Shown one piece after another: positions 1,570 to 47,220 of a DNA stretch of 64,000 bases. Both the position numbers and the translations under genes were made by a program. Source of the stretch: Candidatus Omnitrophota bacterium (GTDB taxonomy: Bacteria; Omnitrophota; Gorgyraeia; Zapsychrales; Zapsychraceae). A model generated the notes under the pieces. It saw only the letters and a program-made list of their open reading frames with translations. It ran no database searches and was not told where the DNA came from. Every line of letters starts with the position of its first letter. Within the stretch, counting starts at the first letter, position 1. The stretch is from assembly GCA_029261055.1 (NCBI GenBank), contig JAJDCA010000037.1, positions 10,291 through 74,290 of the forward strand, in the 5' to 3' direction.

Positions 1570-1623
1570 TAATATCATTAATTACTATTCTGTATTAATC
1601 AATGGTTGAAGGGCAAAACTCTA

Positions 1624-27764: not shown

Positions 27765-27838
27765 TCGCTCTTAGTGTAGTGGCAGCACCAGAAATTCTAA
27801 ACTTCTTAGTCAGGGTTCGATTCCCTGGGGGCGATCCA
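27765..27838 (+). tRNA. suppressor-type tRNA, anticodon CUA (amber), CCA encoded
   Basis: Acceptor TCGCTCT/GGGGCGA, D stem GTGT/GCAC, anticodon arm AGAAA-TTCTAAA-CTTCT (U33, A37), T arm CAGGG-TTCGATT-CCCTG, TCCA. Confidence 0.6.
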
Positions 27839-34962: not shown

Positions 34963-35067
34963 AGGCTACAAGGCTAGCTTCCTTCTAATCGGTTTCCAAG
35001 CGGATGGTTGTGGGTTCGACTCCCACCTATAGTTTTGTCTATAGTAGCTCAATGGTAGAGTATCCGC
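34963..35067 (+). tRNA. tRNA-Gly(UCC)-like gene with 3' half upstream of 5' half, embedded in motif copy C
   Basis: The 5' motif part AGGCTACAAGGCTAGC-TTCCTTCTAA is at 34963-34992. The 3' half TTTCCAA-GCGGA-TGGTT-GTGGG-TTCGACT-CCCAC-CTATAG is at 34993-35032. After TTTTG comes the 5' half TCTATAG-TA-GCTC-AATGGTA-GAGT-A-TCCGC at 35038-35067. The halves form a complete cloverleaf. Confidence 0.35.
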
Positions 35068-35112
35068 CCTAAAAGTTTCCTTAATATCCTGTGTATTAAA
35101 TACTAAACGATA

Positions 35113-35186
35113 AGGCTATGTAAGTAGCTTCCTTCTAACTAATCAATCTTAGACGTTGAATCAAACTAGCTACCGCAATCTCCTTT
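35113..35186 (+). ncRNA. CUUCCUUCUAA-motif structured element, copy D
   Basis: AGGCTATGTAA-GTAGC-TTCCTTCTAA...GCTAC-CGCAATCTCCTTT. Confidence 0.3.
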
Positions 35187-35203
35187 TTAAGAAAGTTAAT
35201 ATA

Positions 35204-37306
35204 ATGAAGCAAAAAATTGCACTCAAGTACTCCAGCTCCATATTTATCAGCAACAATGACTCTAGTGATCACAATAACGCTATCTTGGTTGCTTCAATTA
35301 ATTCTGAATTGATGCAAAATGGGTTTATGCTAAGTCAAGATTCTAGCACTAAATTAGGTATGCTTAGTGATGTTGAACTTACTGACATATATAAAGACAT
35401 TGTTACTGAAGTCCGTATCCTCGTTGGTAACGATGTAGACTATCAACCAATGTACCCAAACTTTCCCGAACAGGTAATGAATGCTTCTGCATCAGAGCTT
35501 TTTCTTAATGCTATCACCCACTACTGGACACATGGCGAATGGAGTCCTAGCTATGAAAAATTACCTCGTGAAATAAGTTTTGAGAATGTTAATTTTAAAG
35601 AGATAAACTTAATTCATGATGTGGAATTTAATAAAATTTTCGAAACAATACTATCTTCGAATGATTCTATTTCTGACTTTGACAGAGAGACCATTGCGTG
35701 GTTTGTTGACACTCATAAGCAATGCAATTATGAAAACTTAAAAATTCCATTTAAAGAAAATATGTGCTTTCTTGCTGGATTACTTGCTGCAAACAATGAA
35801 GACATATCAAAACTACCACAAACGGCAACAGATGTTCTTAGGATTGCCACTGTGTTTTCTGGTGGAGATATATCATTAGCAGAAAATACTAAATTTAAAT
35901 CATTGCCACGAAAATTGCGTCGAATGTTAGTTTCTGCTTTAGAAAACGTGGCAAATTTAGATGATCTTATGCGACATAGAGGTAAATGGATTCGTCTGTT
36001 TCATAATCTACATATAAGTGAATTGACCAAATCGGCAAACTTGCTTGATATGGTGGAATTGATTAGAAGTGGCAAAAATATTGAAACATTTAATAGTAAG
36101 GTTGAGTTAACTATAGCGAACAAAGATCCGTTAGCCGCTATAGCTCTTTTAAAGACTCGCCCAGGGGATTTTGCTCGTCGCATCAGTTGTGTTTTGGGAC
36201 TAAAAGTTCCTGGACGTAGAACAGTTGTAGAAGAGTTTTTAAAAGTTGCTAATCAGGTATCAACGCGAGTTTTGCTTCAATTGATGGGCAGTTTAAAAAT
36301 TCGTGGAAATTCTACAACCGATAAAAGGGTAATATTTCCCAAGGGTAGTATTCAGAAGGCACAAATTGTCAATACAGAATTACCTAAGCTTGGCATAAGA
36401 GCAACGTTGGCTTTAACCAATGGTGTGAAGGAAGTACTGACTGAGAGATTTTCTAGCCTGGATAATCTTGGATGTGTCTACATTGATCCAGATCTTAAAA
36501 AATGTCCACTGCCATCTCAGCAGCGCAGTGCTTCAGAAGGTTTAATACAGGTTGCAAGAGGTACACATCTGCCAATCGGAGATGATAAAAATACATTAAG
36601 ATTTTTTGTATACTGGATAGGGCAAGATATAGATTTAAGTGCTACATTTCATGATGAAAATTTTAGAACTATTGGAAATGTTTCATATAGGAATCTACAA
36701 AATAAACTATTTGGATCATATCATAGTGGAGACAAGACCAAAGCTCCAAATGGCGAATGTGAATTTATTGACGTAAATATTGACGATGCCGTTAAATCTG
36801 GTACAAGATATGTGGTTATGAATGTGTTAGTGTATAGTGGTCCAAAATTCTCTGAGCACGAAAAATGTTATGTTGGATGGATGACTCGTTCTCAACCCAA
36901 TAGTAATGAGATATTTGACGCTAAGACAGTAGATCAAAAGATTGACCTAGCTTCAGAATGCCTAAACTCTATTCCAGTCGTGTTTGATTTAGTAGAAAGA
37001 AAGGCAATATGGACAGACTTATCAACCTCCAAAAATGTTCAGTGGGGTGGCAATAATGTAGAATCCAATAGGGCTACCATCGAGGACAAGTTGGAAGCTA
37101 TTACTAGCTTAAACAATAAGACTAATTTGTTTGAGCTATTTGAACTACATGCAATGGCTAGATCTACTGCTATTGTAGATGATCCCGAAAATGCAGAGAT
37201 GATATTTTCTGTAGAAAATTGTGGTGACATTACGCCAAGTAACATCATGTTAATAAATTCTGAATATTTGACCGATAGTACAGCAACAAAGAAAGAAAAT
37301 GTATAA
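35204..37306 (+). CDS. large hypothetical protein (700 aa)
   Basis: ORF track. ATG 35204 preferred because TTG 35156 lies inside element D. No recognised motif. Confidence 0.5.
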   Translation: MKQKIALKYSSSIFISNNDSSDHNNAILVASINSELMQNGFMLSQDSSTKLGMLSDVELTDIYKDIVTEVRILVGNDVDYQPMYPNFPEQVMNASASELFLNAITHYWTHGEWSPSYEKLPREISFENVNFKEINLIHDVEFNKIFETILSSNDSISDFDRETIAWFVDTHKQCNYENLKIPFKENMCFLAGLLAANNEDISKLPQTATDVLRIATVFSGGDISLAENTKFKSLPRKLRRMLVSALENVANLDDLMRHRGKWIRLFHNLHISELTKSANLLDMVELIRSGKNIETFNSKVELTIANKDPLAAIALLKTRPGDFARRISCVLGLKVPGRRTVVEEFLKVANQVSTRVLLQLMGSLKIRGNSTTDKRVIFPKGSIQKAQIVNTELPKLGIRATLALTNGVKEVLTERFSSLDNLGCVYIDPDLKKCPLPSQQRSASEGLIQVARGTHLPIGDDKNTLRFFVYWIGQDIDLSATFHDENFRTIGNVSYRNLQNKLFGSYHSGDKTKAPNGECEFIDVNIDDAVKSGTRYVVMNVLVYSGPKFSEHEKCYVGWMTRSQPNSNEIFDAKTVDQKIDLASECLNSIPVVFDLVERKAIWTDLSTSKNVQWGGNNVESNRATIEDKLEAITSLNNKTNLFELFELHAMARSTAIVDDPENAEMIFSVENCGDITPSNIMLINSEYLTDSTATKKENV

Positions 37307-37308
37307 TT

Positions 37309-38052
37309 ATGCATAGCCCTGAACAAGATAATCAAGAAGAAAATATAATAGAGGTATTACAAGATGTGGCTGATTCCGTAATAGCTGCACCTAACAAAAA
37401 TGCATCTGAAGCACAGATTGCTATTACAGGTAATGAAACTGAAAATGAATCTCTAATCTTATCTCCGAATCTAATGTTAGATATGGTTGATATAGAAACA
37501 GACCTGGATAGACTAACTGTCAATTGTACAGATGTAAAAGATGACGAAATTGATGAAATTAAACGACAACTACATGCAAATATGGTTCTTTTGGACAAAT
37601 CCGCATTAGGATTATCTGCAATACAGATTGGCATTCCAAAAAGAGCTTTTGTGATTAAGGTGATCAACAAAGATAGACCAATGCGCCGCAAACTATCATT
37701 TGATGAAAAATATAATTTAATATATTTTATTAATCCAGAGATTATATTTTCGCAATACCCTCGTCATATGGTTGAATCATGTCTTAGTATCCCTCGTGAA
37801 AAATTTCGTGTTGAAAGATGCTCTCGGGTTAGGATTACAGATGATCTAAATGGTGAACAAATGTTTAAAAATAAACTAGCGCATGTTGTACAGCATGAAT
37901 TTGATCATACTCGTGGAATTACACTGTACCAGTCTGGTAATCAAGAAATCGTACAAGTAGATGACAATGCTAGGGTAGATATTGGTTTCCTTAGCGAACG
38001 TGAAAGACAATCTTTATTTGAGACAACTGGGAGGTTGGATTATGGGACTTAA
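37309..38052 (+). CDS. def: peptide deformylase with ~75-aa acidic N-terminal extension
   Basis: Motif I GLSAIQIG, motif II ESCLSIP (EGCLS), motif III QHEFDHTRG (HExxH). Confidence 0.8.
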   Translation: MHSPEQDNQEENIIEVLQDVADSVIAAPNKNASEAQIAITGNETENESLILSPNLMLDMVDIETDLDRLTVNCTDVKDDEIDEIKRQLHANMVLLDKSALGLSAIQIGIPKRAFVIKVINKDRPMRRKLSFDEKYNLIYFINPEIIFSQYPRHMVESCLSIPREKFRVERCSRVRITDDLNGEQMFKNKLAHVVQHEFDHTRGITLYQSGNQEIVQVDDNARVDIGFLSERERQSLFETTGRLDYGT

Positions 38053-38314
38053 ACAAGAATACATTGGAAACATTCAGCCATTATGCTTGGCTGCATTGGC
38101 GGAAAAGTGGAACACTGTAGATAGTATTGTCAAGTCAATGGACGATATATTAGATGGCGCTGCTTCTGATTCTGGAATCGCCGCATCTCAAGCACATTTT
38201 GATTTTTTAGATGCTCATGCTAGAATTGAAACATCTCGCAGAACACGCAATAAGGAGTCACTATGCACTGCTGCTGCACAAGCGGCAGATATACTGGACC
38301 CCGCTCAGCCTTAA
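38042..38314 (+). CDS. hypothetical protein
   Basis: ATG 38042 with RBS GGGAGGTTGGATT; the track ORF from 37982 overlaps the def 3' end. Confidence 0.45.
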   Translation: MGLKQEYIGNIQPLCLAALAEKWNTVDSIVKSMDDILDGAASDSGIAASQAHFDFLDAHARIETSRRTRNKESLCTAAAQAADILDPAQP

Positions 38315-38326
38315 TTGGTAGCAGAT

Positions 38327-38397
38327 GGCTCTGTAGTTTAATGGTAAAACAGCCGATTCTAACTCGGTATTTGCAGGTTCAAATCCTGTCGGAGTCT
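38327..38397 (+). tRNA. second suppressor-type tRNA, anticodon CUA
   Basis: Acceptor GGCTCTG/CGGAGTC, D arm GTTT-AATGGTA-AAAC, anticodon arm GCCGA-TTCTAAC-TCGGT, T arm GCAGG-TTCAAAT-CCTGT. Confidence 0.6.
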
Positions 38398-38479
38398 TTA
38401 TTTTAGCAATGACAAATCGTATAATAAACACATTAAAAGGAGAATAAATCAAATGTTGTAGACAGTATCATATCTTTAC

Positions 38480-38767
38480 GTGTTAGTTAGACTGGACTTA
38501 ACCAGATCTCAACAAACTGTCCAAGCTGCTCATGCAGCAATTGAGGCAGCTCGCCAATTACCCATCCATGAAACACATCCCCATTTAGTAATATGTGGTA
38601 TAGATGATCTATATTCACTAGAAAAGGCGCTAGGTTGTCTTGAGTTTAAGGGACTGTCGTGTTTTAAATTTTATGAACCAGATATCAATAATGAATTAAC
38701 GGCTATTGCTGTAGGTCTATTGAGAGGCAAGGCATGTCGCCCACTCTCTAAGTATAAACTGCTTTAA
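38480..38767 (+). CDS. PTH2-family peptidyl-tRNA hydrolase
   Basis: QTVQAAHAAIEAA (GKxAAQCxHAA block), HLVICGIDDLYSLEKALG, TAIAVGLLRG; GTG start. Confidence 0.55.
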   Translation: MLVRLDLTRSQQTVQAAHAAIEAARQLPIHETHPHLVICGIDDLYSLEKALGCLEFKGLSCFKFYEPDINNELTAIAVGLLRGKACRPLSKYKLL

Positions 38768-38776
38768 GGAGGCAAA

Positions 38777-39163
38777 ATGAGTACTTTTAAATCAAGCTGG
38801 GGTTATCATTCCGTAGATTACAAAGATTTTTTAATATTAAAAGAGATGCACAAAATGTATTGGGAATCTCTAAAAGAGGCATATCAGTGGATGCGATGGC
38901 AGAGAAAACATCCCAGAAACCGCCGAGGGGAGGAGCCAAAAGTTAACGATCTGTTTATAGATACTGCCAAAAGTTCTTATTTTTTCACCGCCGATGAAGA
39001 CGGTAACAGTAGATGTCATAACTTACCCTTTACTTGCAAATTTGACACCATAGTAGCTGACTTTCAAGACGCTAGAATGCCGGTAAAAGAAGAGTGTGAT
39101 ATCAAGGAGCTAGATATGGCTAAATACCTAGAATTGTACCGCGAAATCACGTCTGTAAGGTAA
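38777..39163 (+). CDS. hypothetical protein
   Basis: RBS AAGGAGGCAAA. Confidence 0.5.
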   Translation: MSTFKSSWGYHSVDYKDFLILKEMHKMYWESLKEAYQWMRWQRKHPRNRRGEEPKVNDLFIDTAKSSYFFTADEDGNSRCHNLPFTCKFDTIVADFQDARMPVKEECDIKELDMAKYLELYREITSVR

Positions 39164-39280
39164 CGTTGATCGCTCCACGCTATTTGCTTTTCTCTGCAAA
39201 AGTATGCAGCATTTTATATGATTATAGATATAATTAGAGTAGTGATATTTAATGTTGTAAATTAGTTAAGGACGGTTGTT

Positions 39281-39772
39281 TTGTCAAGGCAGAAGTATTA
39301 TGGAAGAAAAAAAACCCATAGATTAGTTATTATATTTTCTATGGTAGTATTATTGATTGGTCTTGTCTCTTCTTACTACGGGACAAGACCAATAATTATA
39401 CAGGGATTAAGTATGTTTCCATCTATATCTCATAAAGATAGATTTATATCTATTGAGAATTTCAATATAAATAGATTTGACATTGTATCTGTAGTTGTAA
39501 ACAATGAAAACCTATGCAAGAGAGTAATTGGCTTGCCTAAAGATGTAATTCAATTTACTAAAAATAATATTATAATAAATAATGAACTTATGACAGAATA
39601 TTATGTTCTTGATATTTCAGATTACGAGATTGGCAAATCATACACTCTTAAAGACGATGAGTATTTTGTAATGGGTGATAATCGCAATAATTCTCATGAC
39701 TCTAGAGCATTTGGACCTATTAAAAAAATTCAGATAAAGTCAAAAATACTTCATAGGGTTTGGAGACAGTAA
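39281..39772 (+). CDS. lepB: signal peptidase I (S26 family)
   Basis: Basic N-region plus TM, Ser box GLSMFPSIS, Lys box CKRVIGLPKD, box E VMGDNRNNSHDSRAFGPI; TTG start with RBS TAAGGACGG. Confidence 0.75.
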   Translation: MSRQKYYGRKKTHRLVIIFSMVVLLIGLVSSYYGTRPIIIQGLSMFPSISHKDRFISIENFNINRFDIVSVVVNNENLCKRVIGLPKDVIQFTKNNIIINNELMTEYYVLDISDYEIGKSYTLKDDEYFVMGDNRNNSHDSRAFGPIKKIQIKSKILHRVWRQ

Positions 39773-40734
39773 TGAAAAAACCATTATTATCAATAATTGT
39801 ACCTTGTGCTCCAAATCGAACACAGCGTGTTAAGACAATCATATCTAGATTAAGTTTAAATAAAGGATTGCATCCAGAAATCCCATTTGAATTAATAATT
39901 GTTGATGGTGGATCTACAGATGAATTAAAAGAAATATGCATGGCTGCAAGAGTACATCTAGACATAAAGTATATATATTTACCACTGTATCAATTTATCA
40001 ATCCGTCCTACCCTCGAAATGTTGGATTTAGAATTGCAGAGGGCGATATATTTACTATGCTAGATGCGGACTATTGGGTTGGAGAAGATTTTATAGTTGG
40101 TGCTACCAAGCCCTTTTTAAATGGTGACAGGGATATTATTAACAATGGTTATGTTATTGACACGTCTGAGAACAATAGAGGTGGCCAACGTGTTGCAGAG
40201 CATATAAATAGCTGTTTATTAGATTCAGTAAATTTAAAGAAAACAATATTGAGTCTTTATGATGTGTGCAATATACCTAAACCATGTGAACCAAAGCATA
40301 TTTGGCTGTGGTCAGCACCAAGACAAAATTATTTTAAGATGAATGGGTATGATGAAAAATATGTTTTAGGTGGCTGGTGTAGAGAGGACGATGATTTTTT
40401 CTATCGTACAATGGAGACAGGACTCAAAAGACATAAAAATGAATATGATAAATTTTGCTGTTTGCATATGTGGCACGAACAGGGTGTAAGGTCTAACGCC
40501 AATGTTAATCGTGAATATTATAGTAAAGTACTACCTAGTAACTTTATTAGAAATATAAATCACCAGTGGGGAAAAATGTTAGCAGGCTCATACTGTGATA
40601 TTGGTGGCACAGCACTTGACCATTACGAAACAGAAGAATGGATTGAAACAAATCAATCGGATGTTGTGTCTTATAAAAATGAAAAGCCATGGAAGTCAAT
40701 AGAAGAACTTAAGCAAAGTATAGAAAAGAGCTGA
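39772..40734 (+). CDS. GT2-family glycosyltransferase
   Basis: LSIIVPCAPNRTQRV..., LIIVDGGSTD, TMLDADYW (DxD-like). Confidence 0.65.
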   Translation: MKKPLLSIIVPCAPNRTQRVKTIISRLSLNKGLHPEIPFELIIVDGGSTDELKEICMAARVHLDIKYIYLPLYQFINPSYPRNVGFRIAEGDIFTMLDADYWVGEDFIVGATKPFLNGDRDIINNGYVIDTSENNRGGQRVAEHINSCLLDSVNLKKTILSLYDVCNIPKPCEPKHIWLWSAPRQNYFKMNGYDEKYVLGGWCREDDDFFYRTMETGLKRHKNEYDKFCCLHMWHEQGVRSNANVNREYYSKVLPSNFIRNINHQWGKMLAGSYCDIGGTALDHYETEEWIETNQSDVVSYKNEKPWKSIEELKQSIEKS

Positions 40735-40735
40735 G

Positions 40736-41125
40736 ATGAAGACAATAATAGCCGGAGGACGTAAAATACATGATAAAAAACTGTTGTGGGATATTGTAAA
40801 AGATATTGATTTTGACATAACAGAAATAGTGTCTGGTTGTGCAAATGGTGTTGATACAATGGGTGAAAAATATGCTAAATGGGCTAACATACCTGTTAAG
40901 CAATTTCCTGCCGATTGGGGAAACCTAGACTTGCCTGGTGCTCGTATTAAAGAAAATGAATATGGCAAATACAATGCTACTGCTGGACTTTTCAGAAATG
41001 ATGAAATGGCAAGGTATGCAGGTGCATTAATATTAATTTGGGATGGAGAGAGTTCTGGCAGTAGAAATATGCTAGAATTGGCTGAAGAATATGGTTTAGT
41101 TATTTTAGAAAAAGTAATACAGTAA
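40736..41125 (+). CDS. DUF2493/SLOG-family Rossmann protein
   Basis: IIAGGRKIHD...IVSGCANGVDTMGEKYAKWANIPVKQFPADWGN...AGLFRNDEM...IWDGESSGSRNMLELAEEYGL. Confidence 0.5.
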   Translation: MKTIIAGGRKIHDKKLLWDIVKDIDFDITEIVSGCANGVDTMGEKYAKWANIPVKQFPADWGNLDLPGARIKENEYGKYNATAGLFRNDEMARYAGALILIWDGESSGSRNMLELAEEYGLVILEKVIQ

Positions 41126-41140
41126 AATAAGGATTTTAAG

Positions 41141-41569
41141 ATGCAGGGGTTTCCACAAGATAATGTATTGGGTCAAACAGGTGTTGATCAAGATAATATT
41201 ACTCCAGAAATGCTACAGCAAAAAGCTGTAATGGATGAAAGAAACAGGATCATAAATAAGTTTATGACTGGTGTTCAGTCCGTTGGTATGGTTGACGCTA
41301 CAACTAATCGCGGTATTTTAAATGGTTTATTAGCTGACAATATTGACATAATTGTTGGATGTGCAACTTTTAAAAATATATCTAAGAGAATATCGAGTGC
41401 CAGAGACATTGGTTTAGATAGTATAATTGTATCCTGTGAAGAAATTGAAGAGATTGAGTACCAAATGAAGGGCAACGAAATAAGTTCTGGATCGTGGATA
41501 TCTGTACTCACAACATTGCAGTACGGAGTAATACGCAAAGATAATGGTGAGGTTATAGTTCTGTGGTAA
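41141..41569 (+). CDS. hypothetical protein
   Basis: ORF track. Confidence 0.45.
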   Translation: MQGFPQDNVLGQTGVDQDNITPEMLQQKAVMDERNRIINKFMTGVQSVGMVDATTNRGILNGLLADNIDIIVGCATFKNISKRISSARDIGLDSIIVSCEEIEEIEYQMKGNEISSGSWISVLTTLQYGVIRKDNGEVIVLW

Positions 41570-42036
41570 ATTTTAAAAAAAAGCCAAAATCTGATTGTAA
41601 CACTATAGGTATTTGTGCAGGTTGCTTCACTATTCTTACACCCAATCATGTCAAGTATTTGGAAGAGGCAAGGGATGCATGTGATTATTTAATAGTCATA
41701 ACTAATTCGGATAAGTATATACTTGATAAAAAGGGCATTGTTCCCATATCTTGTGAAGGTAGAATGCAGATATTATCAGGATTAAAATCCGTTGATGAAG
41801 TATCTAGCTTTGAAGAAGAGGATGAGCATGACTGGATTGACAGATTTAAAAGAACTAGATTGTCTGAGTTTGCAGAAAATGCCAAGACAGTAGTGTTTCA
41901 TGATCAGTGTGCTATGTTTAATAAATTTCCAGATGATATTCCAGGATTTGGAGTGGCAGACATTGTAACTATGATTAGTCGTAAGGCTGGAGTGGCTGTT
42001 TCAGATATTTTTAGAAAGATTAAAAATGAAAAATAA
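41563..42036 (+). CDS. hldE: D-glycero-beta-D-manno-heptose-1-phosphate adenylyltransferase (HldE domain II-like), HxGH replaced by TPNH
   Basis: GICAGCFTILTPNHVKYLEEAR, LIVITNSD (VNSD block), R..ILSGLKSVDEVSSFEEEDEHD. Confidence 0.65.
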   Translation: MVNFKKKPKSDCNTIGICAGCFTILTPNHVKYLEEARDACDYLIVITNSDKYILDKKGIVPISCEGRMQILSGLKSVDEVSSFEEEDEHDWIDRFKRTRLSEFAENAKTVVFHDQCAMFNKFPDDIPGFGVADIVTMISRKAGVAVSDIFRKIKNEK

Positions 42037-42967
42037 TATACTCGTAATAGGTGATGCGATGTTAGATTCTCATGTAATGGGTCATACTGATCGCATATCA
42101 CCAGAAGCACCTGTACCAGTTGTTAGTGATGTCGAGAAGATTTGCAAGCTTGGCGGTGCTGCTAATGTGGCTGCACAAGTATCAGTTTATGCTGACAATA
42201 CAGTAATGATGTATAAAATAACATCTGGCGATCCTTTAGAACACAATGAAATGTGCAAATTGCTGAAGGAGAAAAATATTTATTTCCTTCCCATGTCACT
42301 TCCAAGAAGTAGTAAAACTATGATACCTGTAAAAGAAAGAGTTTGGGTTGGTAAACAGCAGATTTGTCGCATAGACAGAGAAAATACAGACCGCCCAACG
42401 CTTAAGGAATCAGCACAGTGGATAGAGGATATAAAAACTACTATTAAAGAATACGGCATTACTAAGGTAATATTTTCGGACTATGACAAGGGTACATTAA
42501 CGGACGGAATTATAGAGAGCATAGCTCGTTACTGCAACAGTCGTCAAATAATTACAGTACTAGACCCCAAAAGACCCACGTTCTCCGGTATTAAATTTTT
42601 ATCCGCCGTAAAGTGCAACGAAAAGGAATTACAATCAACCGGACTCAATAATATTGATGAATTATCCTCTAGTATGGCCGGAGTACGCATTATTCAAACT
42701 CGCGGGAATAAGTCAACCAAGGTTAGTTTATCCTCTATGCTTGGACTACAAAGCAGTGTAGTAGATGTCACTGAGTCAGACGTTGTTGACACATGCGGAT
42801 GTGGAGATATTCATATCGCAATACTAACACTTATGTTTGATGGAACTAATATTTTGTCAGCGGTTAGGTGTGCAAACAGTGCAGCATCATTGTCGGCCAA
42901 GCATCTTGGTTGTTACACACTATCTAAAGAGGAGATCGAAAGTTGCATACAAAGCCACACTTCTTAG
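42026..42967 (+). CDS. hldE: D-glycero-beta-D-manno-heptose-7-phosphate kinase (HldE domain I / RfaE-like)
   Basis: ILVIGDAMLD, RISPEAPVPVV, GGAANVA, VIFSDYDKG, DTCGCGD. Confidence 0.8.
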   Translation: MKNNILVIGDAMLDSHVMGHTDRISPEAPVPVVSDVEKICKLGGAANVAAQVSVYADNTVMMYKITSGDPLEHNEMCKLLKEKNIYFLPMSLPRSSKTMIPVKERVWVGKQQICRIDRENTDRPTLKESAQWIEDIKTTIKEYGITKVIFSDYDKGTLTDGIIESIARYCNSRQIITVLDPKRPTFSGIKFLSAVKCNEKELQSTGLNNIDELSSSMAGVRIIQTRGNKSTKVSLSSMLGLQSSVVDVTESDVVDTCGCGDIHIAILTLMFDGTNILSAVRCANSAASLSAKHLGCYTLSKEEIESCIQSHTS

Positions 42968-43920
42968 TAACTGGTGGATTAGGATTTATTGGATCTGCAC
43001 TAGTTGATAGATTAGAAAGAGATTATCCAAGTGTAGGTATTTTGATAATTGATAATCTTACACACTCTAGTTCTACAAAGGGAGATGAGTTTACAAATAG
43101 AGTTTTTGCACGTAGCTTAAGTCATAATGTTTTTTGTGATTTCTCAGATTACTTGCTGGAGTCATATAATGTGCAATGTGTATTTCATTTGGCAGCACTG
43201 AGCAACACTTCAACAGAATCCATGGCAGACTTATTTGAGCAAAACGTCAAGGCTACTGAACTGCTGGTTAAGTCAGCAGTTAAAAATAATATACCTATGG
43301 TGTATGCATCTTCTGCTAGCGTTTATGGTAATGAAAAAGTACCAATGGAGGAAGACCAAGATTTATTTCCTATAAGTAATTACGGTATTTCAAAAATGTT
43401 GTCTGATTTGACAGTCGATAAATATATGGATGTTGGAAATAGTATTGCTGGTTTAAGAATTTTTAACTGTTATGGACCAGGAGAAGATCACAAGCAGTAC
43501 ACCAACTCATGTTCTCCAATGCTGACATTCTATAATTCACTATCTAGTGGGAGTGGAGTCAGTCTATTTAACGACAGTAAACAATATTTTCGTGACTTTA
43601 TATATATAGATGATGTTGTAGAAGCTATTGTGTGTTCATATAGACAAGGACTAGATGGAATCTTTAATGTTGGCTCAGGAGAGTGTCATAGTTTTTATGA
43701 TATTGCTAAGCTTATTGCAGAAGAATTAGGTATAATGAATATAGACGATCTTATTACGTGGAAGTCAATGAGTGACGAGATGTATAATAGATATCAGGCA
43801 CATACGCTTTCATGCAACGAAAATTCTCCATTTAATTTTCTTTATAAAGATGTTAGAACTGGTGTAAAGAAATACATTGAATATTTAAAGAGTAGGAACA
43901 ATGGACAAAAAGCTTACTGA
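42943..43920 (+). CDS. hldD: ADP-L-glycero-D-manno-heptose-6-epimerase (HldD/RfaD)
   Basis: FLVTGGLGFIGS, YASSASVYG, SNYGISK (YxxxK), RIFNCYGPGEDHK, RDFIYIDDV, GIFNVGSG, RYQAHT. Confidence 0.75.
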   Translation: MHTKPHFLVTGGLGFIGSALVDRLERDYPSVGILIIDNLTHSSSTKGDEFTNRVFARSLSHNVFCDFSDYLLESYNVQCVFHLAALSNTSTESMADLFEQNVKATELLVKSAVKNNIPMVYASSASVYGNEKVPMEEDQDLFPISNYGISKMLSDLTVDKYMDVGNSIAGLRIFNCYGPGEDHKQYTNSCSPMLTFYNSLSSGSGVSLFNDSKQYFRDFIYIDDVVEAIVCSYRQGLDGIFNVGSGECHSFYDIAKLIAEELGIMNIDDLITWKSMSDEMYNRYQAHTLSCNENSPFNFLYKDVRTGVKKYIEYLKSRNNGQKAY

Positions 43921-44092
43921 TAAAATTAAAAAAATGTACAAAGAGGACTTCATGAGCCTAAATGAGATTGGCAGGTTGCTTGATCTACATCAAGAGACAG
44001 TCAAAAGAAGGCTTGTAAAGATGGGTGTTAGAATCAGAAGTAGAAGCATGTCAATGGATATCCATCATGCTAAAAGAAGAAAAAAATCTTAG
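43901..44092 (+). CDS. small HTH protein
   Basis: MSLNEIGRLLDLHQETVKRRLVKMG helix-turn-helix. Confidence 0.4.
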   Translation: MDKKLTDKIKKMYKEDFMSLNEIGRLLDLHQETVKRRLVKMGVRIRSRSMSMDIHHAKRRKKS

Positions 44093-44108
44093 AGTTAGGA
44101 ATTTTATA

Positions 44109-44864
44109 ATGGCTGGAAAGAAACCAACCGAGAAGGATCTACAAGGCAAGAGCTTTACTACTATTTTTGGAGATGAGTATAAGGTGTCTGATCACTTTGA
44201 ACCCAGTGACTTTATCTTGCTAAAGCAAGGGTCTAGAGATAGTCTATTTGTTAGACATGATCCACTGTTGCGTGTAGCTAAAGACGAAGATGTTCTTGGA
44301 ATTTTAGGTAGAAAAGTAGAAGTTAACCAAAGTCCTAGTAGGGATAATGAATGGTGTGCTACATCTACTGTTACTTATAAATTTGGCGGTAAAGATGAAT
44401 CTATAACATGGTCTGATTGTGCAGATTGTCGCAAAGGAAATGCTCGTGGTGGATATGCAACATATTCTACTGCAATGTCCACAACAAGAGCTTCTGCTAG
44501 GGCACTGAGGTTTGCTCTTGGTTTAGAATTTTGTAGTGCTGAAGAAATGGGTGACATAGATGATATGGTAGATGAATCATTTACTGATCCTATAGACGAT
44601 GCTCAATTGAATGTAATAAAAAGCAAATACATTAAGCAATATGGATATACACTAGAAGATATAGTGTCATACATTTTAAAAACCTTTGAACGAAACGTTG
44701 ACGTATTAGAGGATATTTACAAGGGCGAAGCAGCACAATTGTTACAATATTTGAATAAGTCTAAAAAACCAGTTGACAAGGTTAAGAAGCCAGCAAAAGA
44801 AACCAAGAAGAAAGTAAGCAAAACTAAAAAGAAAACAAGCAAAGTCAAGAAAAAGGAGGAGTAA
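44109..44864 (+). CDS. putative Rad52/Sak-like single-strand annealing protein with Lys-rich tail
   Basis: GGYATYSTAMSTTRASARALRFALGL resembles the Rad52 block KEAxTDxLKRALRxFG; C-terminal KKPVDKVKKPAKETKKK. ATG 44109 with RBS AGGAAT. Confidence 0.3.
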   Translation: MAGKKPTEKDLQGKSFTTIFGDEYKVSDHFEPSDFILLKQGSRDSLFVRHDPLLRVAKDEDVLGILGRKVEVNQSPSRDNEWCATSTVTYKFGGKDESITWSDCADCRKGNARGGYATYSTAMSTTRASARALRFALGLEFCSAEEMGDIDDMVDESFTDPIDDAQLNVIKSKYIKQYGYTLEDIVSYILKTFERNVDVLEDIYKGEAAQLLQYLNKSKKPVDKVKKPAKETKKKVSKTKKKTSKVKKKEE

Positions 44865-44867
44865 TAG

Positions 44868-45242
44868 ATGCTGGAGCAATTTAATGCAGTATTTTATGAA
44901 GTACTGCCAGTCATATTGGCTATACTGGTCCCTTCGGTGTTTTTTGTAGTTAGGATTATTATTAAAAAACTAACGAATAAACTAGATGCAGAAACTCAGT
45001 CAAATATACATTCTATTGTTATGGATGTTGTTCAGCAGGGAGTTGATTATGCTGACAAATGGGCAGAAGATCAGAAGCGTAAAACGGATAATAAGCCATA
45101 TGGCAGTTTAAAGAGTAAAGAGGCGACCGCCTACATATTAGATGAATTAAAAGAGAGGGGTATAACTGATATAGCACGAGACTCTCTATTGCGTAAGATA
45201 GAGTCTAAACTTGGATCTGAAAAGAAAATTATAAAGGACTAG
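44868..45242 (+). CDS. N-terminally anchored membrane protein
   Basis: RBS AAGGAGGAGTAA; single TM VLPVILAILVPSVFFVV. Confidence 0.5.
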   Translation: MLEQFNAVFYEVLPVILAILVPSVFFVVRIIIKKLTNKLDAETQSNIHSIVMDVVQQGVDYADKWAEDQKRKTDNKPYGSLKSKEATAYILDELKERGITDIARDSLLRKIESKLGSEKKIIKD

Positions 45243-45244
45243 TA

Positions 45245-45712
45245 ATGCGAAAATTATTTTTATTATCAATTATTTTAACTGTACTTAGTACATTAACAGG
45301 CTGTAGCATGTTGGGCATTCGTGAAAAATCAGAGCTGACAATTGATCAAAAGGTCAACATTATTAAAAGTACAGCTACTAGTGCAACGTTTTTGGCACTA
45401 ACAGAAAACTCAGATGACAATGAGGAATTAGTCGAAAAGGCCAATGATCTAAAAGCACCAATTGAAAATGATGTTTTGCCGCTATTGCAGGATGGTAGTG
45501 TTACATTTGATTCAATAACAATTGGGTTACTGGAAGAAAAAATTGATCGTAGGTACATGCTATATCTCCAACAAACTATTGCTCTATTACAATTGTACTA
45601 TGAAGTACCTGATGTTGGTGATTTTATGTCGCCAGAAGATATATCATTATGGATAGCACTATTTGAAGGAATTGTAAAGGGTGCTAATCAGGCATTACTA
45701 ACTACGGAATAA
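45245..45712 (+). CDS. lipoprotein
   Basis: Signal plus lipobox LSTLTGCSM. Confidence 0.55.
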   Translation: MRKLFLLSIILTVLSTLTGCSMLGIREKSELTIDQKVNIIKSTATSATFLALTENSDDNEELVEKANDLKAPIENDVLPLLQDGSVTFDSITIGLLEEKIDRRYMLYLQQTIALLQLYYEVPDVGDFMSPEDISLWIALFEGIVKGANQALLTTE

Positions 45713-45731
45713 AGTATTTTAGGAGCAAGAT

Positions 45732-46004
45732 ATGGGTTGGTTAATGTTGGTAAAATTGCTATTACCACTGATAGCTAAAAAAAAGACTCTTTCATTTTCT
45801 GAAGCTAAGGTATTGGAGCAGTTAATTTCTAATGTAGCTGATCTTTTTGCCAAATCAAAAAGAACATGTGTGTATAAAACGCACGAGTGTAAATATAGAG
45901 ATGGCGCATGTTTTGTTTTAGCAACAAAGGGTAAGGACTGGAAAATTGATGATATTAAAAAGTGCCCATATTTAAAACCAATAAAGGAGAATGATAAAAA
46001 GTGA
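45732..46004 (+). CDS. hypothetical small protein
   Basis: RBS TAGGAGCAAGAT. Confidence 0.45.
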   Translation: MGWLMLVKLLLPLIAKKKTLSFSEAKVLEQLISNVADLFAKSKRTCVYKTHECKYRDGACFVLATKGKDWKIDDIKKCPYLKPIKENDKK

Positions 46005-46843
46005 GACTATTTGCAGTGTTTATTATATTATCTATACTCTCTTTTTTATCTTGCGACTTTGATAATGAATTAGATTATATGTTTTCTCCAGCATCAATTA
46101 TTAATGAAACAAAAAACAAAAGCATAACTGATTCTATGATATCTCCAGTTGGCAGAATACATATTTTTTCAAAAGATGACAATAAAGACGACATGGGTAG
46201 CGGTAGTGCTATACTAGTATCAGATTCATCAAAATCTATGGGTAATGATGAGTATCCATATGTGTATATTTATTTTACGGCGTCTCATGTTATAAATCCA
46301 ATTAATGATTTTGATGAGTTTGGAAACTTAACAAAAGTAAATACATGCTGGTCTATCCAAATGTGGTCATATAACAGTATAAATGACATTAAAGATGTAT
46401 CATATACTATAGACTTGTGCCCAGACAATGATATGTCAAAGTGTCATGTGTATAAATCATACATGCATGATGCTGCTATTTTGATAGTGTATACTAAAAA
46501 TAAATTATCTAAAATTAATCCTGTAAATATTGCTAAATTAAAAACAATAGGTGATATAAAAATAGGAGACATGCAATACTCTGTAGGATGTCAAGGTGGA
46601 ATATTTCCATACATTAGAACTGGGATTGTTTCAGCCATACAAAAAAATCTAATATGGGTTTCTACATCGGTTAATCTTGGAGACTCTGGTGGAGCTGCTT
46701 ACAATAAAGATATGGAGCTTGTTGGTATAATTATAGGTAAAGTTAATCATGGTGATGGAGGTGTATTTATACCGCTAAATAACATACATGAAGAATTGCT
46801 CATGGGTAATCGGATGAAAATTTTAAAAGAAATATGGAAATAA
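46001..46843 (+). CDS. secreted chymotrypsin-like (S1) serine protease
   Basis: Signal peptide; His box YFTASHVI, Ser box GDSGGAAY. Confidence 0.65.
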   Translation: MRLFAVFIILSILSFLSCDFDNELDYMFSPASIINETKNKSITDSMISPVGRIHIFSKDDNKDDMGSGSAILVSDSSKSMGNDEYPYVYIYFTASHVINPINDFDEFGNLTKVNTCWSIQMWSYNSINDIKDVSYTIDLCPDNDMSKCHVYKSYMHDAAILIVYTKNKLSKINPVNIAKLKTIGDIKIGDMQYSVGCQGGIFPYIRTGIVSAIQKNLIWVSTSVNLGDSGGAAYNKDMELVGIIIGKVNHGDGGVFIPLNNIHEELLMGNRMKILKEIWK

Positions 46844-46854
46844 GGAGAATATAA

Positions 46855-47220
46855 ATGGCAAACAAATCAGATGAAAAAACTATTAGAATTGTTCAAGGTG
46901 TTATATCTGAAGTCGCTAATGGCAAAGAGATTAATGGTGAATTAGCAAATATTTTAGCTAAAAAAATAATGGTAGCATTGAGAACTACTGGTGCTGAAAA
47001 GGCCACACAGCCAAAGAGACAATCTGCATTTATGGCGGTTCCAGGAGCAGATGGAGAAACTGCCATTGAGAATGTTTCCCCAAGCAGAACTGGGAGTGTG
47101 CCAAAACAAGCATCAGAAAAAAATGCATTTATTGTTGGTGATAATGTAGGTACTGAGAATAGTAAACCCAGTAAAAAGAACAAAAATAAAAATAAAAAAG
47201 ATAATTTAGGCAACAATTAA
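46855..47220 (+). CDS. hypothetical protein
   Basis: RBS AAGGAGAATATAA. Confidence 0.5.
   Translation: MANKSDEKTIRIVQGVISEVANGKEINGELANILAKKIMVALRTTGAEKATQPKRQSAFMAVPGADGETAIENVSPSRTGSVPKQASEKNAFIVGDNVGTENSKPSKKNKNKNKKDNLGNN

What the first reader, a model, noticed from the sequence alone, without database searches (positions are those of the whole stretch)
39772..43920. Phage ADP-heptose pathway (split HldE kinase and adenylyltransferase, HldD) next to GT2 and a DUF2493/SLOG protein, with GT9 and methyltransferases upstream
Consecutive genes encode a GT2 glycosyltransferase, a DUF2493/SLOG Rossmann protein, an unknown protein, the HldE adenylyltransferase domain, the HldE kinase domain (as separate genes rather than the fused bacterial enzyme) and the HldD epimerase. 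About 20 kb upstream there are a CgeB-like GT, a GT9 heptosyltransferase-like gene (VNSGMMHLANAIS) and three SAM methyltransferases (18707-24913). Together these suggest the phage makes ADP-L,D-heptose and a methylated heptose glycan, which may decorate virion proteins, DNA or the host surface. GmhA and GmhB are absent, so sedoheptulose-7-P processing would depend on the host. The adenylyltransferase has TPNH in place of the HxGH signature.
Basis: partly seen in the sequence, partly recalled or inferred. Interest (0 to 1): 0.6.

Follow-up and report, generated by a model that had tools for sequence, protein, structure and literature searches.

The report
Phage ADP-heptose sugar-activation and glycosyltransferase module
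A large, uncultured phage carries its own kinase, nucleotidyltransferase and epimerase for making the activated sugar ADP-heptose, next to glycosyltransferases; the annotation holds up, but such modules are already known in phages and what gets glycosylated is still open.

Summary
Window 39760-43920 holds six co-directional, abutting or overlapping genes:
- a GT2 glycosyltransferase
- a YAcAr/SLOG protein
- a conserved unknown protein
- a cytidylyltransferase-fold NTase
- a PfkB kinase
- an SDR epimerase

The last three score best, by wide margins, against the heptose-specific models rfaE_dom_II, rfaE_dom_I and heptose_epim. All three stay below NCBI's equivalog cut-offs. Kinase and epimerase keep the HldA and HldD catalytic residues.

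TPNH replaces HxGH in the NTase. It is strictly conserved in four related phages.

The upstream "GT9" gene is weak by sequence. Its AlphaFold model, however, matches only ADP-heptose heptosyltransferases (TibC, WaaF, WaaC).

The block signal peptidase I-GT2-NTase-kinase sits at the same position, upstream of RecA/DnaB, in a broad group of 125-180 kb phages.

No GmhA or GmhB is present in the 64 kb window.

This is not new in kind:
- Cyanophage S-SSM7 has the same NTase-then-kinase split.
- At least 88 IMG/VR contigs carry related kinases.
- A 2023 preprint showed that a phage kinase/NTase/GT set can heptosylate 5hmC in DNA.

Most likely the module supplies ADP-heptose to phage glycosyltransferases. 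The acceptor (envelope, protein or DNA) is unresolved.

The parts
39281..39772 (+). Membrane-anchored signal peptidase I (S26). It overlaps the GT2 start by 13 nt and is the conserved first gene of the block.
   Evidence: PF10502 6.8e-27. TIGR02227 at 96.3 bits, above the cut-off of 47. Found directly upstream of GT2 in L004, L005, L008 and L017, and one gene further upstream in L016.
39760..40734 (+). GT2 (GT-A fold) glycosyltransferase with a DAD motif and a WCREDDD motif. Candidate consumer of the activated sugar.
   Evidence: PF00535 4.5e-12 and PF02709 1e-6. Best PDB match is TarS 5tze, 3.8e-6. Co-occurs with the NTase and kinase in L004, L008, L012, L016 and L017.
40736..41125 (+). YAcAr-family SLOG domain protein (DUF2493). 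Role in the module is unknown.
   Evidence: PF10686 at 42.6 bits, above the 28.2 cut-off. phrog_289 2.6e-20. 57-66% identical in L004, L008 and L015. Lies next to the unknown protein and the NTase in L015.
41141..41569 (+). Conserved protein of unknown function with a W(I/L)SxLTTLQYGxI motif. Its stop overlaps the NTase start.
   Evidence: No Pfam, NCBIfam, PHROG or PDB match. 34-49% identical positional homologues in L004, L007, L008 and L015. The AF2 single-sequence model is unusable, pLDDT 38.7.
41563..42036 (+). HldC / HldE-domain-II-like nucleotidyltransferase. TPNH replaces HxGH. It carries a 15-residue insertion and an SVSDIF tail.
   Evidence: TIGR02199 at 67.6 bits (cut-off 181.5), against 35.3 bits for glycerol-3-P cytidylyltransferase. 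phrog_7878 8.8e-17, full length. Alignment A1. Exhaustive search and motif survey.
42026..42967 (+). HldA / HldE-domain-I-like D-glycero-beta-D-manno-heptose-7-phosphate 1-kinase.
   Evidence: TIGR02198 at 180.6 bits (cut-off 345), against 31.6 bits for ribokinase. The only PDB hit is B. cenocepacia HldA 4e84, 4.8e-20. RISPEAPVPV, DYxKG, DPK, NxxE and GxGD are invariant in A7.
42943..43920 (+). HldD-like ADP-glyceromanno-heptose 6-epimerase. Present only in the closest relatives.
   Evidence: TIGR02197 at 222.5 bits (cut-off 274.6), against 93.3 bits for GalE. The top four PDB hits are all ADP-heptose 6-epimerases. S116, Y140, K144 and K178 are conserved. Present in L006, L007 and L008, absent in L004 and L005.
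18707..19663 (+). CgeB-like GT-B glycosyltransferase. First gene of the upstream glycan cluster.
   Evidence: PF13524 8e-14 and PF12996 5.1e-8. 58% identical orthologue in L011.
21530..22315 (+). Short (261 aa) GT9/TibC-like heptosyltransferase-fold protein.
   Evidence: PF01075 E=0.0076, below gathering. TIGR02193 E=0.0077. Clade profile against PDB finds only WaaF 1psw, E=0.042. AF2 pLDDT 86.7. All 30 Foldseek PDB hits with E<=3e-5 are ADP-heptose heptosyltransferases: TibC 2e-8, WaaF, WaaC and a structural-genomics GT9 entry (3tov); the next hit is at about 9e-3. BFVD top hits are phage 'GT family 9', 'Aah/TibC' and 'RfaF' proteins.
22315..22569 (+). DUF4254 protein directly after the GT9-like gene.
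   Evidence: PF14063 1.4e-8. Same adjacency in L011.
22553..23047 (+). Possible SAM methyltransferase (marginal).
   Evidence: PF08241 at 21.7 bits against a cut-off of 21.2. No NCBIfam hit.
23647..24264 (+). FkbM-family methyltransferase.
   Evidence: PF05050 3e-14. TIGR01444 at 37.7 bits, exactly at the cut-off.
24251..24913 (+). Class I SAM methyltransferase (Methyltransf_11).
   Evidence: PF08241 1e-9.

Best explanation
**What it is.** The genes from 39281 to 43920 form one conserved, tightly packed phage module that supplies a nucleotide-activated heptose to phage glycosyltransferases.

**Proposed pathway.**
1. The HldA-like kinase phosphorylates host-made D-glycero-D-manno-heptose-7-phosphate at C1.
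2. A phosphatase removes the 7-phosphate. This is host GmhB or a phage enzyme outside the window.
3. The HldC-like NTase, a TPNH variant, adds AMP to give ADP-D,D-heptose.
4. The HldD-like epimerase converts it to ADP-L,D-heptose.
5. The sugar is used by the adjacent GT2 and/or the TibC/GT9-like transferase at 21530-22315. The neighbouring CgeB-like GT and methyltransferases extend and O-methylate the glycan.

**Acceptor, my ranking:** cell-envelope glycoconjugate about 0.4, phage or secreted protein about 0.3, DNA about 0.15-0.2.

**Shown:** family assignment, catalytic residues, gene arrangement, conservation and the heptosyltransferase fold.

**Inferred:** substrate, nucleotide specificity, dependence on host GmhA/GmhB, coupling of the two clusters, and the acceptor.
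For: **Family assignment.** Heptose-specific models are the best hits for all three enzymes by 30-150 bits over the next family.

**Solved structures.** The only solved relative of the kinase is HldA. The four best relatives of the epimerase are ADP-heptose 6-epimerases.

**Conserved residues.**
- Kinase: RISPEAPVPV, DYxKG, DPK, NxxE and GxGD
- Epimerase: S116, Y140, K144 and the HldD-typical K178

**PHROGs.** The NTase falls in phrog_7878, annotated as heptose kinase/adenylyltransferase.

**Gene arrangement.** Genes abut or overlap: the pairs S26/GT2, unknown/NTase, NTase/kinase and kinase/epimerase overlap by 13, 7, 11 and 25 nt, GT2 and SLOG are 1 nt apart, and SLOG and the unknown 15 nt apart. 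G+C content matches the rest of the window.

**Conservation.** The block is conserved at 50-66% identity in L004, L006 and L008. In looser form it is present in the 168-181 kb contigs L016 and L017.

**Heptosyltransferase fold.** The GT9-like model matches only ADP-heptose heptosyltransferases. It is conserved in the clade together with the methyltransferases.

**Precedents.**
- S-SSM7 has the same NTase-then-kinase split plus an epimerase.
- Iyer et al. 2021 describe PfkB kinase, HIGH NTase, epimerase and GT clusters in cyanophages.
Against: - All three enzymes score below NCBI's equivalog cut-offs: 180.6 of 345, 67.6 of 181.5 and 222.5 of 274.6.
- The NTase lacks HxGH. It belongs to a distinct phage-rich subfamily in which fused bacterial HldE proteins match only partially. 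ATP and heptose-1-P specificity is therefore unproven.
- No GmhA or GmhB homologue occurs in the window or in any of about 90 viral loci carrying related kinases.
- The epimerase is missing from L004, L005, L016 and L017.
- GT2 enzymes are not known heptosyltransferases (my knowledge).
- The GT9-like gene lies 17 kb away from the module.
- The roles of the SLOG and unknown proteins are unexplained.
Confidence: 0.6

Rival explanations
1. DNA hypermodification. The module activates heptose so that a phage glycosyltransferase (the GT2 or one of the GT-B enzymes) attaches it to 5-hydroxymethyl-pyrimidines in phage DNA, protecting the genome from host nucleases.
For: - Pyle et al. 2023 (bioRxiv 10.1101/2023.12.21.572611) showed that a phage HAD-APH enzyme, a cytidylyltransferase-like NTase and a GT-B make 5-heptosyl- and di-heptosyl-methylcytosine in E. 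coli.
- Their phage GT-A DNA transferases are GT2 enzymes whose best PDB match is TarP. The window GT2's best PDB match is the related TarS.
- Their neighbourhood annotation lists include TIGR02199 and TIGR02197.
- The window has a dCMP deaminase just upstream of the GT cluster and a T4-gp1-type dNMP kinase.
- The module sits next to the replication genes.
Against: - No C5-cytosine methyltransferase, TET/JBP-type dioxygenase or thymidylate-synthase-like hydroxymethylase was found among about 60 window ORFs of at least 140 aa.
- None appears in the visible parts of related contigs.
- The methyltransferases here are FkbM and class I small-molecule types.
- The GT9-like model resembles protein and LPS heptosyltransferases, not T4 beta-GT.
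- Only 64 of about 155 kb could be examined.
Confidence: 0.2
2. Plain auxiliary metabolic genes. The phage only boosts the host's own ADP-heptose pool for LPS core synthesis during infection, and no phage-specific glycan is made.
For: - HldE-type genes and heptosyltransferases are routinely listed as phage auxiliary metabolic genes in metagenome surveys.
- The pathway depends on host GmhA and GmhB.
Against: - The module is fixed in position and always accompanied by phage glycosyltransferases.
- The genome also carries a heptosyltransferase-fold protein and methyltransferases of its own.
- A lytic phage with rIIA/rIIB homologues gains little from more host LPS (for the rIIA-like GHKL hit, for rIIB; the reasoning is inference).
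Confidence: 0.1
3. The activated product is not ADP-heptose. This NTase subfamily and the PfkB kinase activate another phospho-sugar or polyol, and the SDR epimerase acts on that product.
For: - The NTase matches glycerol-3-P and ethanolamine-P cytidylyltransferases best in the PDB.
- HxGH is replaced, and the position is variable in the subfamily.
- L012 pairs the same NTase and kinase with a HAD-NTP_transferase fusion, a cupin and a DUF7796 protein.
- No GmhA is found in any viral locus.
Against: - The kinase carries the HldA-specific RISPEAPVPV segment and has no other solved relative.
- The epimerase keeps K178, the second catalytic base typical of HldD (its role is from my knowledge of Morrison and Tanner 2007).
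- rfaE_dom_II outscores the cytidylyltransferase model by 32 bits.
Confidence: 0.1
4. NAD/ADP-ribose-centred counter-defence. The SLOG protein, the unknown protein and the NTase handle ADP-ribose-like nucleotides, and the sugar genes are neighbours by accident.
For: - YAcAr SLOG domains are predicted to use NAD+ or ADP-ribose derivatives (Iyer et al. 2021).
- Relatives carry NAMPT and NMNAT-Nudix directly upstream of the block.
- The trio SLOG-unknown-NTase recurs in L015.
Against: - The NTase overlaps the HldA-like kinase. The two are paired in 49 of 80 IMG/VR loci without any SLOG.
- In L017 the SLOG gene is detached from the block.
- The kinase and epimerase assignments are heptose-specific.
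Confidence: 0.05

Closest known systems
Bacterial ADP-L-glycero-beta-D-manno-heptose pathway (GmhA, HldE or HldA+HldC, GmhB, HldD) feeding GT9 heptosyltransferases WaaC/WaaF
   Same: - Same three enzyme families and the same predicted chemistry.
- Kinase and epimerase catalytic residues are conserved.
- Standalone kinase and NTase genes also occur in bacteria, for example Burkholderia HldA 4e84. 5x9q is, as I recall, Burkholderia HldC; the deposited name is only 'Putative cytidylyltransferase'.
   Different: - About 26-33% identity to the Salmonella enzymes.
- Scores fall below the equivalog cut-offs.
- The gene order is NTase before kinase.
- TPNH replaces HxGH, with a 15-residue insertion.
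- No GmhA or GmhB is found in the window.
- The partners are a GT2, a SLOG protein, an unknown protein and a signal peptidase.
Cyanomyovirus sugar clusters (Synechococcus phages S-SSM7, S-SSM6a, Sf-FS3; 'LPS/capsule modification' or secondary-metabolite clusters of Iyer et al. 2021)
   Same: - A separate NTase gene lies immediately upstream of, and overlaps, a PfkB kinase gene, with an SDR epimerase nearby.
- The NTase falls in the same PHROG.
- Glycosyltransferases and methyltransferases sit in the neighbourhood.
   Different: - The S-SSM7 NTase keeps HPGH.
- The S-SSM7 cluster has a small DxDxT HAD protein, carbamoyltransferases, a halogenase and 2OG oxygenases.
- It has no S26, SLOG or GT2 block.
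- The kinases are only about 26-28% identical.
Phage DNA heptosylation cluster 'contig 53' (Pyle, Lund, O'Toole, Saleh 2023, bioRxiv 10.1101/2023.12.21.572611)
   Same: A phage-encoded kinase/phosphatase, a cytidylyltransferase-fold NTase and a glycosyltransferase together use the host heptose precursor. This is the only experimental demonstration I found that a phage module of this type yields a heptose conjugate.
   Different: - That kinase is APH-like and fused to a HAD domain; here it is PfkB/HldA-like.
- That GT is GT-B/GT4, similar to T4 beta-GT.
- That cluster lies next to a C5-methyltransferase and a 5mYOX enzyme, which were not found here.
TibC/AAH bacterial autotransporter heptosyltransferases (BAHT) and GT9
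   Same: The model of the 21530-22315 protein is closest to TibC (E 2e-8, 18-20% identity), then WaaF and WaaC. It also carries the C-terminal (D/N)SGxMH motif.
   Different: - 261 aa, against about 320-406 aa.
- Below the Pfam GT9 threshold.
- No evidence for the TibC iron-finger or dodecamer.
- The acceptor is unknown.

Membership tests
HldA / HldE domain I heptose-7-phosphate kinase (TIGR02198) | Best-scoring family, well separated from other PfkB kinases | tested here: met
   180.6 bits, against 31.6 for ribokinase. The only PDB relative is HldA 4e84.
HldA / HldE domain I heptose-7-phosphate kinase (TIGR02198) | Reaches NCBI's equivalog cut-off (345 bits) | tested here: not met
   180.6 bits.
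HldA / HldE domain I heptose-7-phosphate kinase (TIGR02198) | Conserved N-terminal RISPEAPVPV segment, NxxE and GxGD catalytic motifs | tested here: met
   Invariant in alignment A7, which includes Salmonella HldE. Identical segment in the alignment with 4e84.
HldC / HldE domain II heptose-1-phosphate adenylyltransferase (TIGR02199) | Best-scoring family among nucleotidyltransferases | tested here: met
   67.6 bits, against 35.3 for glycerol-3-P cytidylyltransferase. phrog_7878 8.8e-17.
HldC / HldE domain II heptose-1-phosphate adenylyltransferase (TIGR02199) | Reaches the equivalog cut-off (181.5 bits) | tested here: not met
   67.6 bits, and only residues 6-96 align.
HldC / HldE domain II heptose-1-phosphate adenylyltransferase (TIGR02199) | HxGH signature | tested here: not met
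   TPNH in all four clade members. Only the last His is invariant. Related subfamily members show TAGH, TKGH, TRNH, HNGH and similar.
HldC / HldE domain II heptose-1-phosphate adenylyltransferase (TIGR02199) | C-terminal ISTT-type motif | tested here: inconclusive
   SVSDIF aligns with STTNII of Salmonella HldE.
HldD ADP-glyceromanno-heptose 6-epimerase (TIGR02197) | Best-scoring family among SDR sugar epimerases and dehydratases | tested here: met
   222.5 bits, against 93.3 for GalE. The top four PDB hits are AGME enzymes.
HldD ADP-glyceromanno-heptose 6-epimerase (TIGR02197) | Reaches the equivalog cut-off (274.6 bits) | tested here: not met
   222.5 bits.
HldD ADP-glyceromanno-heptose 6-epimerase (TIGR02197) | Catalytic Ser116, Tyr140, Lys144 and second base Lys178, plus GxxGxxG | tested here: met
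   Window S124, Y147, K151 and K184 are invariant in A2. Numbering was checked on Salmonella HldD.
Complete ADP-heptose pathway | GmhA (SIS isomerase) and GmhB (HAD phosphatase) encoded alongside | tested here: not met
   No SIS or HAD Pfam hit in about 60 ORFs. No DxDxT ORF. No tblastn hit to E. coli GmhA or GmhB in the window or the loci. Only 64 of about 155 kb was examined.
GT9 / BAHT heptosyltransferases | Pfam PF01075 gathering score | tested here: not met
   16.0 bits against 22. TIGR02193 15.5 bits.
GT9 / BAHT heptosyltransferases | GT-B fold closest to ADP-heptose-dependent transferases | tested here: met
   The model has pLDDT 86.7. All 30 PDB hits with E<=3e-5 are TibC, WaaF, WaaC or GT9.
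GT9 / BAHT heptosyltransferases | Transfers heptose from ADP-heptose | not testable with these tools
   Needs an enzyme assay.
Phage DNA sugar-hypermodification clusters (Pyle et al. 2023) | Neighbouring source of 5hmC or 5hmU (C5-MT plus 5mYOX, or ThyS-like hydroxymethylase) | tested here: not met
   None in the window ORFs or in the visible parts of relatives. The rest of the genome was not examined.
YAcAr SLOG (PF10686) | Pfam gathering score | tested here: met
   42.6 bits against 28.2.
Signal peptidase I (TIGR02227) | Equivalog cut-off | tested here: met
   96.3 bits against 47.

The most novel reading that the evidence does not exclude
The module is not an envelope-remodelling accessory. 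It is a core function of a whole lineage of 125-180 kb phages that heptosylates a macromolecule of the phage itself. One option is phage DNA, as in the single reconstituted heptosyl-5hmC cluster. The other is virion or secreted proteins, through the short TibC-like transferase. Cytoplasmic heptosylation before Sec export and cleavage by the co-encoded signal peptidase I would mirror AIDA/TibA biogenesis. In this reading the conserved SLOG and unknown proteins would be new pathway components, for example standing in for GmhB or handling the ADP-sugar.
Probability: 0.25. Interest if true: 0.65.

Novelty: new member of a known kind. Interest (0 to 1): 0.38.

Why it matters
Phage-encoded sugar-activation pathways decide what phages can attach to their DNA, their particles or their host's surface. 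That in turn shapes restriction evasion, receptor masking and immune recognition.

This locus adds a well-conserved, compact example in an uncultured lineage of large phages. Three features are directly testable:
- an NTase that has lost the canonical HxGH motif yet is under purifying selection;
- a miniature TibC/GT9-like transferase;
- a conserved SLOG-plus-unknown pair beside the pathway.

It does not open a new category. Related modules are annotated in cyanophages and in many IMG/VR contigs, and heptosylation of phage DNA has been shown experimentally.

Tried and rejected
**Searches that found nothing**
- Megablast of 35000-47000 against GenBank phages: no match.
- Single-protein scan of IMG/VR with the kinase: no relatives. 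An alignment was needed.
- Exact look-up of the window's own kinase and of P0001: not on record. The rest of the 154,790 bp contig therefore could not be read.

**Computations that gave no usable result**
- Structure of the unknown 142 aa protein. The single-sequence model has pLDDT 38.7 and was discarded. Profile against PDB and the word-index homologue search were both empty.
- SLOG profile against PDB: only a weak hit to the Mo-carrier-like protein 3imk, E=0.25.
- Promoter and terminator scan: counts equal the shuffle expectation and are uninformative.

**Ideas tested and dropped**
- The split HldE could be an artefact of TAG recoding, since two tRNA-CUA genes are present. Rejected for three reasons. 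The NTase precedes the kinase. TAG ends 23-27 ordinary ORFs here. TAG-ended ORFs show no excess of backup stops.
- The two 716 aa ORFs could be paralogues. Rejected: no similarity.
- The intein-bearing epimerase of L017 could be an HldD orthologue. Rejected: no tblastn similarity.
- The S-SSM7 'phosphoheptose isomerase' could serve as a GmhA reference. Rejected: it is a DxDxT HAD-like protein.

Full report
**Observation**

The window is AT-rich (about 34% G+C), and essentially all genes lie on the + strand.

At 39281-43920 seven ORFs abut or overlap:

| Coordinates | Gene |
|---|---|
| 39281-39772 | signal peptidase I |
| 39760-40734 | GT2 |
| 40736-41125 | YAcAr/SLOG |
| 41141-41569 | unknown protein |
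| 41563-42036 | nucleotidyltransferase (NTase) |
| 42026-42967 | PfkB kinase |
| 42943-43920 | SDR epimerase |

The three pathway enzymes score best against the heptose-specific models:

| Enzyme | Best model | Bits | Next unrelated family |
|---|---|---|---|
| Kinase | TIGR02198 rfaE_dom_I | 180.6 | ribokinase, 31.6 |
| NTase | TIGR02199 rfaE_dom_II | 67.6 | glycerol-3-P cytidylyltransferase, 35.3 |
| Epimerase | TIGR02197 heptose_epim | 222.5 | GalE, 93.3 |

None reaches NCBI's equivalog cut-off (345, 181.5 and 274.6 bits). These are divergent relatives, not orthologues by that standard.

**Enzyme detail: kinase and epimerase**

The kinase has a single relative in the PDB, Burkholderia HldA (4e84, 4.8e-20). 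It shares the RISPEAPVPV segment with that protein.

In an alignment with phage relatives and Salmonella HldE, these motifs are invariant: RISPEAPVPV, DYxKG, DPK, NxxE and the GxGD aspartate.

The four best PDB matches of the epimerase are all ADP-heptose 6-epimerases. Ser116, Tyr140, Lys144 and Lys178 (Salmonella numbering, checked) are invariant. From my knowledge, Lys178 is the second catalytic base that sets HldD apart from GalE-type epimerases.

**Enzyme detail: the NTase**

The NTase is the weakest assignment.
- It carries CAGCFTILTPNH where Salmonella HldE has HAGH and phage S-SSM7 has HPGH.
- It has a 15-residue insertion.
- It has SVSDIF in place of STTNII.

TPNH is identical in all four members of the clade, so it is selected rather than decayed.

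An exhaustive HMMER search shows that the NTase belongs to a subfamily of small NTases, apparently mostly phage-borne.
- Members share the insertion and the tail.
- The first three motif positions vary (HSGH, HNGH, TAGH, TKGH, TRNH, LVHH). The final His is kept in every member where the motif could be located.
- Some members are fused to HNH/zinc-ribbon modules.
- Fused bacterial HldE proteins match only over the first 90 residues.

PHROGs places the NTase in phrog_7878, annotated as heptose kinase/adenylyltransferase.

**The upstream cluster**

- 18707-19663 is a CgeB-like GT-B.
- 23647-24264 is an FkbM methyltransferase.
- 24251-24913 is a Methyltransf_11 protein.
- 22553-23047 is a marginal methyltransferase.

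The 'GT9' gene at 21530-22315 is only E=0.0076 against PF01075 and E=0.0077 against WaaC's TIGR02193. It has just seven homologues, all in this phage clade.

A profile of those seven finds only WaaF in the PDB, at E=0.042.

The AlphaFold model is confident (pLDDT 86.7). Every one of its 30 Foldseek PDB matches with E<=3e-5 is an ADP-heptose-dependent heptosyltransferase:
- TibC comes first (2e-8, 18-20% identity).
- WaaF, WaaC and a Veillonella GT9 follow.
- The next hit is at about 9e-3.

Against viral models, the best matches are phage proteins named 'GT family 9', 'Aah/TibC' and 'RfaF'.

The heptose link of the upstream cluster is therefore supported by fold, not by sequence thresholds.

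**Relatives and synteny**

Nothing similar exists at the DNA level in GenBank phages.

The kinase has a 100% identical record on a 154,790 bp contig. It has 49-54% identical relatives on contigs of 40-168 kb.

Those contigs show the same order: S26, GT2, YAcAr, unknown, NTase, kinase. A small HTH protein follows, then a ~225 aa protein, a holin, a trypsin-like protease, RecA, DnaB and primase.

The epimerase is present in L006, L007 and L008 but absent in L004 and L005.

The upstream cluster is conserved in the 168 kb relative. It comprises dCMP deaminase, a sigma-like protein, the CgeB-like GT, methyltransferases, the GT9-like protein and DUF4254.

More distant contigs of 168-181 kb (kinase 36-37% identical) keep S26, GT2 (two copies), NTase (one or two copies), an unknown protein and the kinase at the same place upstream of RecA/DnaB.

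Two small contigs add further contexts.
- L015 carries YAcAr, a 34% identical homologue of the unknown protein, and the NTase.
- L012 links a GT2, a cupin, the NTase, a HAD-NTP_transferase fusion, FkbM and the kinase.

The stable core is GT2 plus NTase plus kinase. S26 is a constant neighbour. SLOG, the unknown protein and the epimerase are variable additions.

**How common this is**

tblastn against GenBank phages finds related kinases in:
- Synechococcus phages S-SSM7, S-SSM6a and Sf-FS3;
- a 735 kb megaphage;
- a marine single-cell virus.

In S-SSM7 a 133 aa NTase gene overlaps the start of a 279 aa kinase gene. This is the same reversed split as here, and an epimerase lies nearby.

An alignment-based scan of IMG/VR found 88 contigs with related kinases. 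Of the 80 kept:
- 49 also encode a similar NTase on the same strand;
- in 41 the NTase lies downstream (the HldE order);
- in 8 it lies upstream.

None of these loci, nor the window, encodes a detectable homologue of E. coli GmhA or GmhB. Eighteen carry the small DxDxT HAD protein that S-SSM7 mis-annotates as 'phosphoheptose isomerase'.

**Literature**

- Iyer et al. 2021 describe cyanophage clusters of PfkB kinases, HIGH-superfamily NTases, epimerases and glycosyltransferases. They predict surface-polysaccharide remodelling against superinfection. They also predict that YAcAr SLOG domains act on NAD/ADP-ribose.
- Metagenome surveys list HldE and heptosyltransferase I as phage auxiliary metabolic genes.
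- Pyle et al. 2023 is the most relevant. They reconstituted a phage cluster of a HAD-APH enzyme, a cytidylyltransferase and a GT-B. It makes 5-heptosyl- and di-heptosyl-methylcytosine in E. coli DNA. Their GT-A DNA transferases are TarP-like GT2 enzymes.

**Interpretation**

The best-supported reading is a phage module that makes ADP-heptose from the host's heptose-7-phosphate and passes it to phage glycosyltransferases. In this subclade the product would be the L,D epimer.

- **Shown:** family placement, catalytic residues, tight packing and overlaps between genes, conservation, and a heptosyltransferase-fold protein in the same genome.
- **Inferred:** substrate and nucleotide specificity, reliance on host GmhA/GmhB, coupling between the two clusters, methylation of the glycan, and the acceptor.

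The acceptor cannot be settled.
- **Envelope glycoconjugates** are favoured by precedent and by the envelope-related neighbours (signal peptidase, holin, lipoproteins).
- **Proteins** are suggested by the TibC-first ranking and by the module's fixed place in a lytic-type genome.
- **DNA** has an experimental precedent. It is hinted at by the nearby dCMP deaminase and a gp1-type dNMP kinase. It lacks any 5hmC or 5hmU-forming enzyme in the sequence I could read.

**Verdict**

The finding is a sound annotation of a conserved phage nucleotide-heptose and glycosylation module. It is a new member of a known kind.

Its particular points of interest are the selected TPNH variant, the miniature TibC/GT9-like enzyme and the unexplained SLOG-plus-unknown pair.

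Noticed in passing
window 27765-27838 and 38327-38397: Two tRNA genes with anticodon CUA (amber suppressors) among seven tRNAs. TAG still ends 23-27 ordinary ORFs in this window, and TAG-ended ORFs show no excess of nearby backup stops. Recoding, if any, would concern genes outside the window.
   Followed up: partly
window 5063-5434/5444-6064, 6516-6980/6987-7553, 33973-34443/34468-34785: Three pairs of adjacent ORFs are in frame and separated only by a TAG stop or a very short stretch. If TAG were suppressed they would read through into fusions of 295-346 codons. One pair would be a pentapeptide-repeat fusion and another a Macro-domain fusion.
   Followed up: no
window 1606-3756 and 4075-5031: A GHKL-ATPase protein of 716 aa and a protein matching RIIB lysis-inhibitor PHROGs (2e-42). 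This is an rIIA/rIIB-like pair typical of T4-like and jumbo myoviruses.
   Followed up: partly
window 20262-20702: A half-size (146 aa) PnuC-like membrane protein sits inside the upstream glycosyltransferase cluster (PF04973 5.7e-8; TIGR01528 25.8 bits, below cut-off). It might be a small transporter or flippase rather than an NMN transporter.
   Followed up: no
L004 3350-6995; L008 4511-7183: Related phages carry NMNAT-Nudix and NAMPT genes (an NAD+ salvage pair) immediately upstream of the S26 gene. In the window that position is instead taken by a 716 aa protein (phrog_33734), a peptide deformylase and a suppressor tRNA.
   Followed up: no
L003 9661-9996 (S-SSM7 SSSM7_130): The protein annotated 'phosphoheptose isomerase' starts MRYCVDIDNTIC. 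That is a HAD-type DxDxT phosphatase motif, so the annotation looks wrong. Homologues lie near the kinase in 18 of 80 IMG/VR loci.
   Followed up: partly
window 37309-38052 and 39281-39772: The phage encodes its own peptide deformylase and a bona fide signal peptidase I. Candidate substrates with signal peptides or lipoboxes are at 10095-10934, 12097-12423, 45245-45712 and 46001-46843.
   Followed up: partly
L017 11038-13149: A 703 aa SDR epimerase/dehydratase in a distant relative is interrupted by an intein with a LAGLIDADG endonuclease. It is not detectably similar to the window's HldD-like epimerase.
   Followed up: partly
window 740-1351, 5444-6064, 6516-6980: Two pentapeptide-repeat proteins and a Macro-domain protein lie in the early part of the window. 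They are possible counter-defence genes.
   Followed up: no
window 44868-46843: Directly downstream of the module lie a holin-like gene (by synteny with Phage_holin_6_1 genes in relatives), a lipobox protein and a lipobox-bearing trypsin-like protease. This is a lysis or envelope-acting cassette.
   Followed up: no
L005 (GCA_023143585.1, JAGLHJ010001499.1): A 124 kb contig that is clearly a relative of this phage (RecA, DnaB, primase and the same module) is deposited inside a 'Candidatus Pacearchaeota archaeon' genome bin. This is probably a binning artefact.
   Followed up: no
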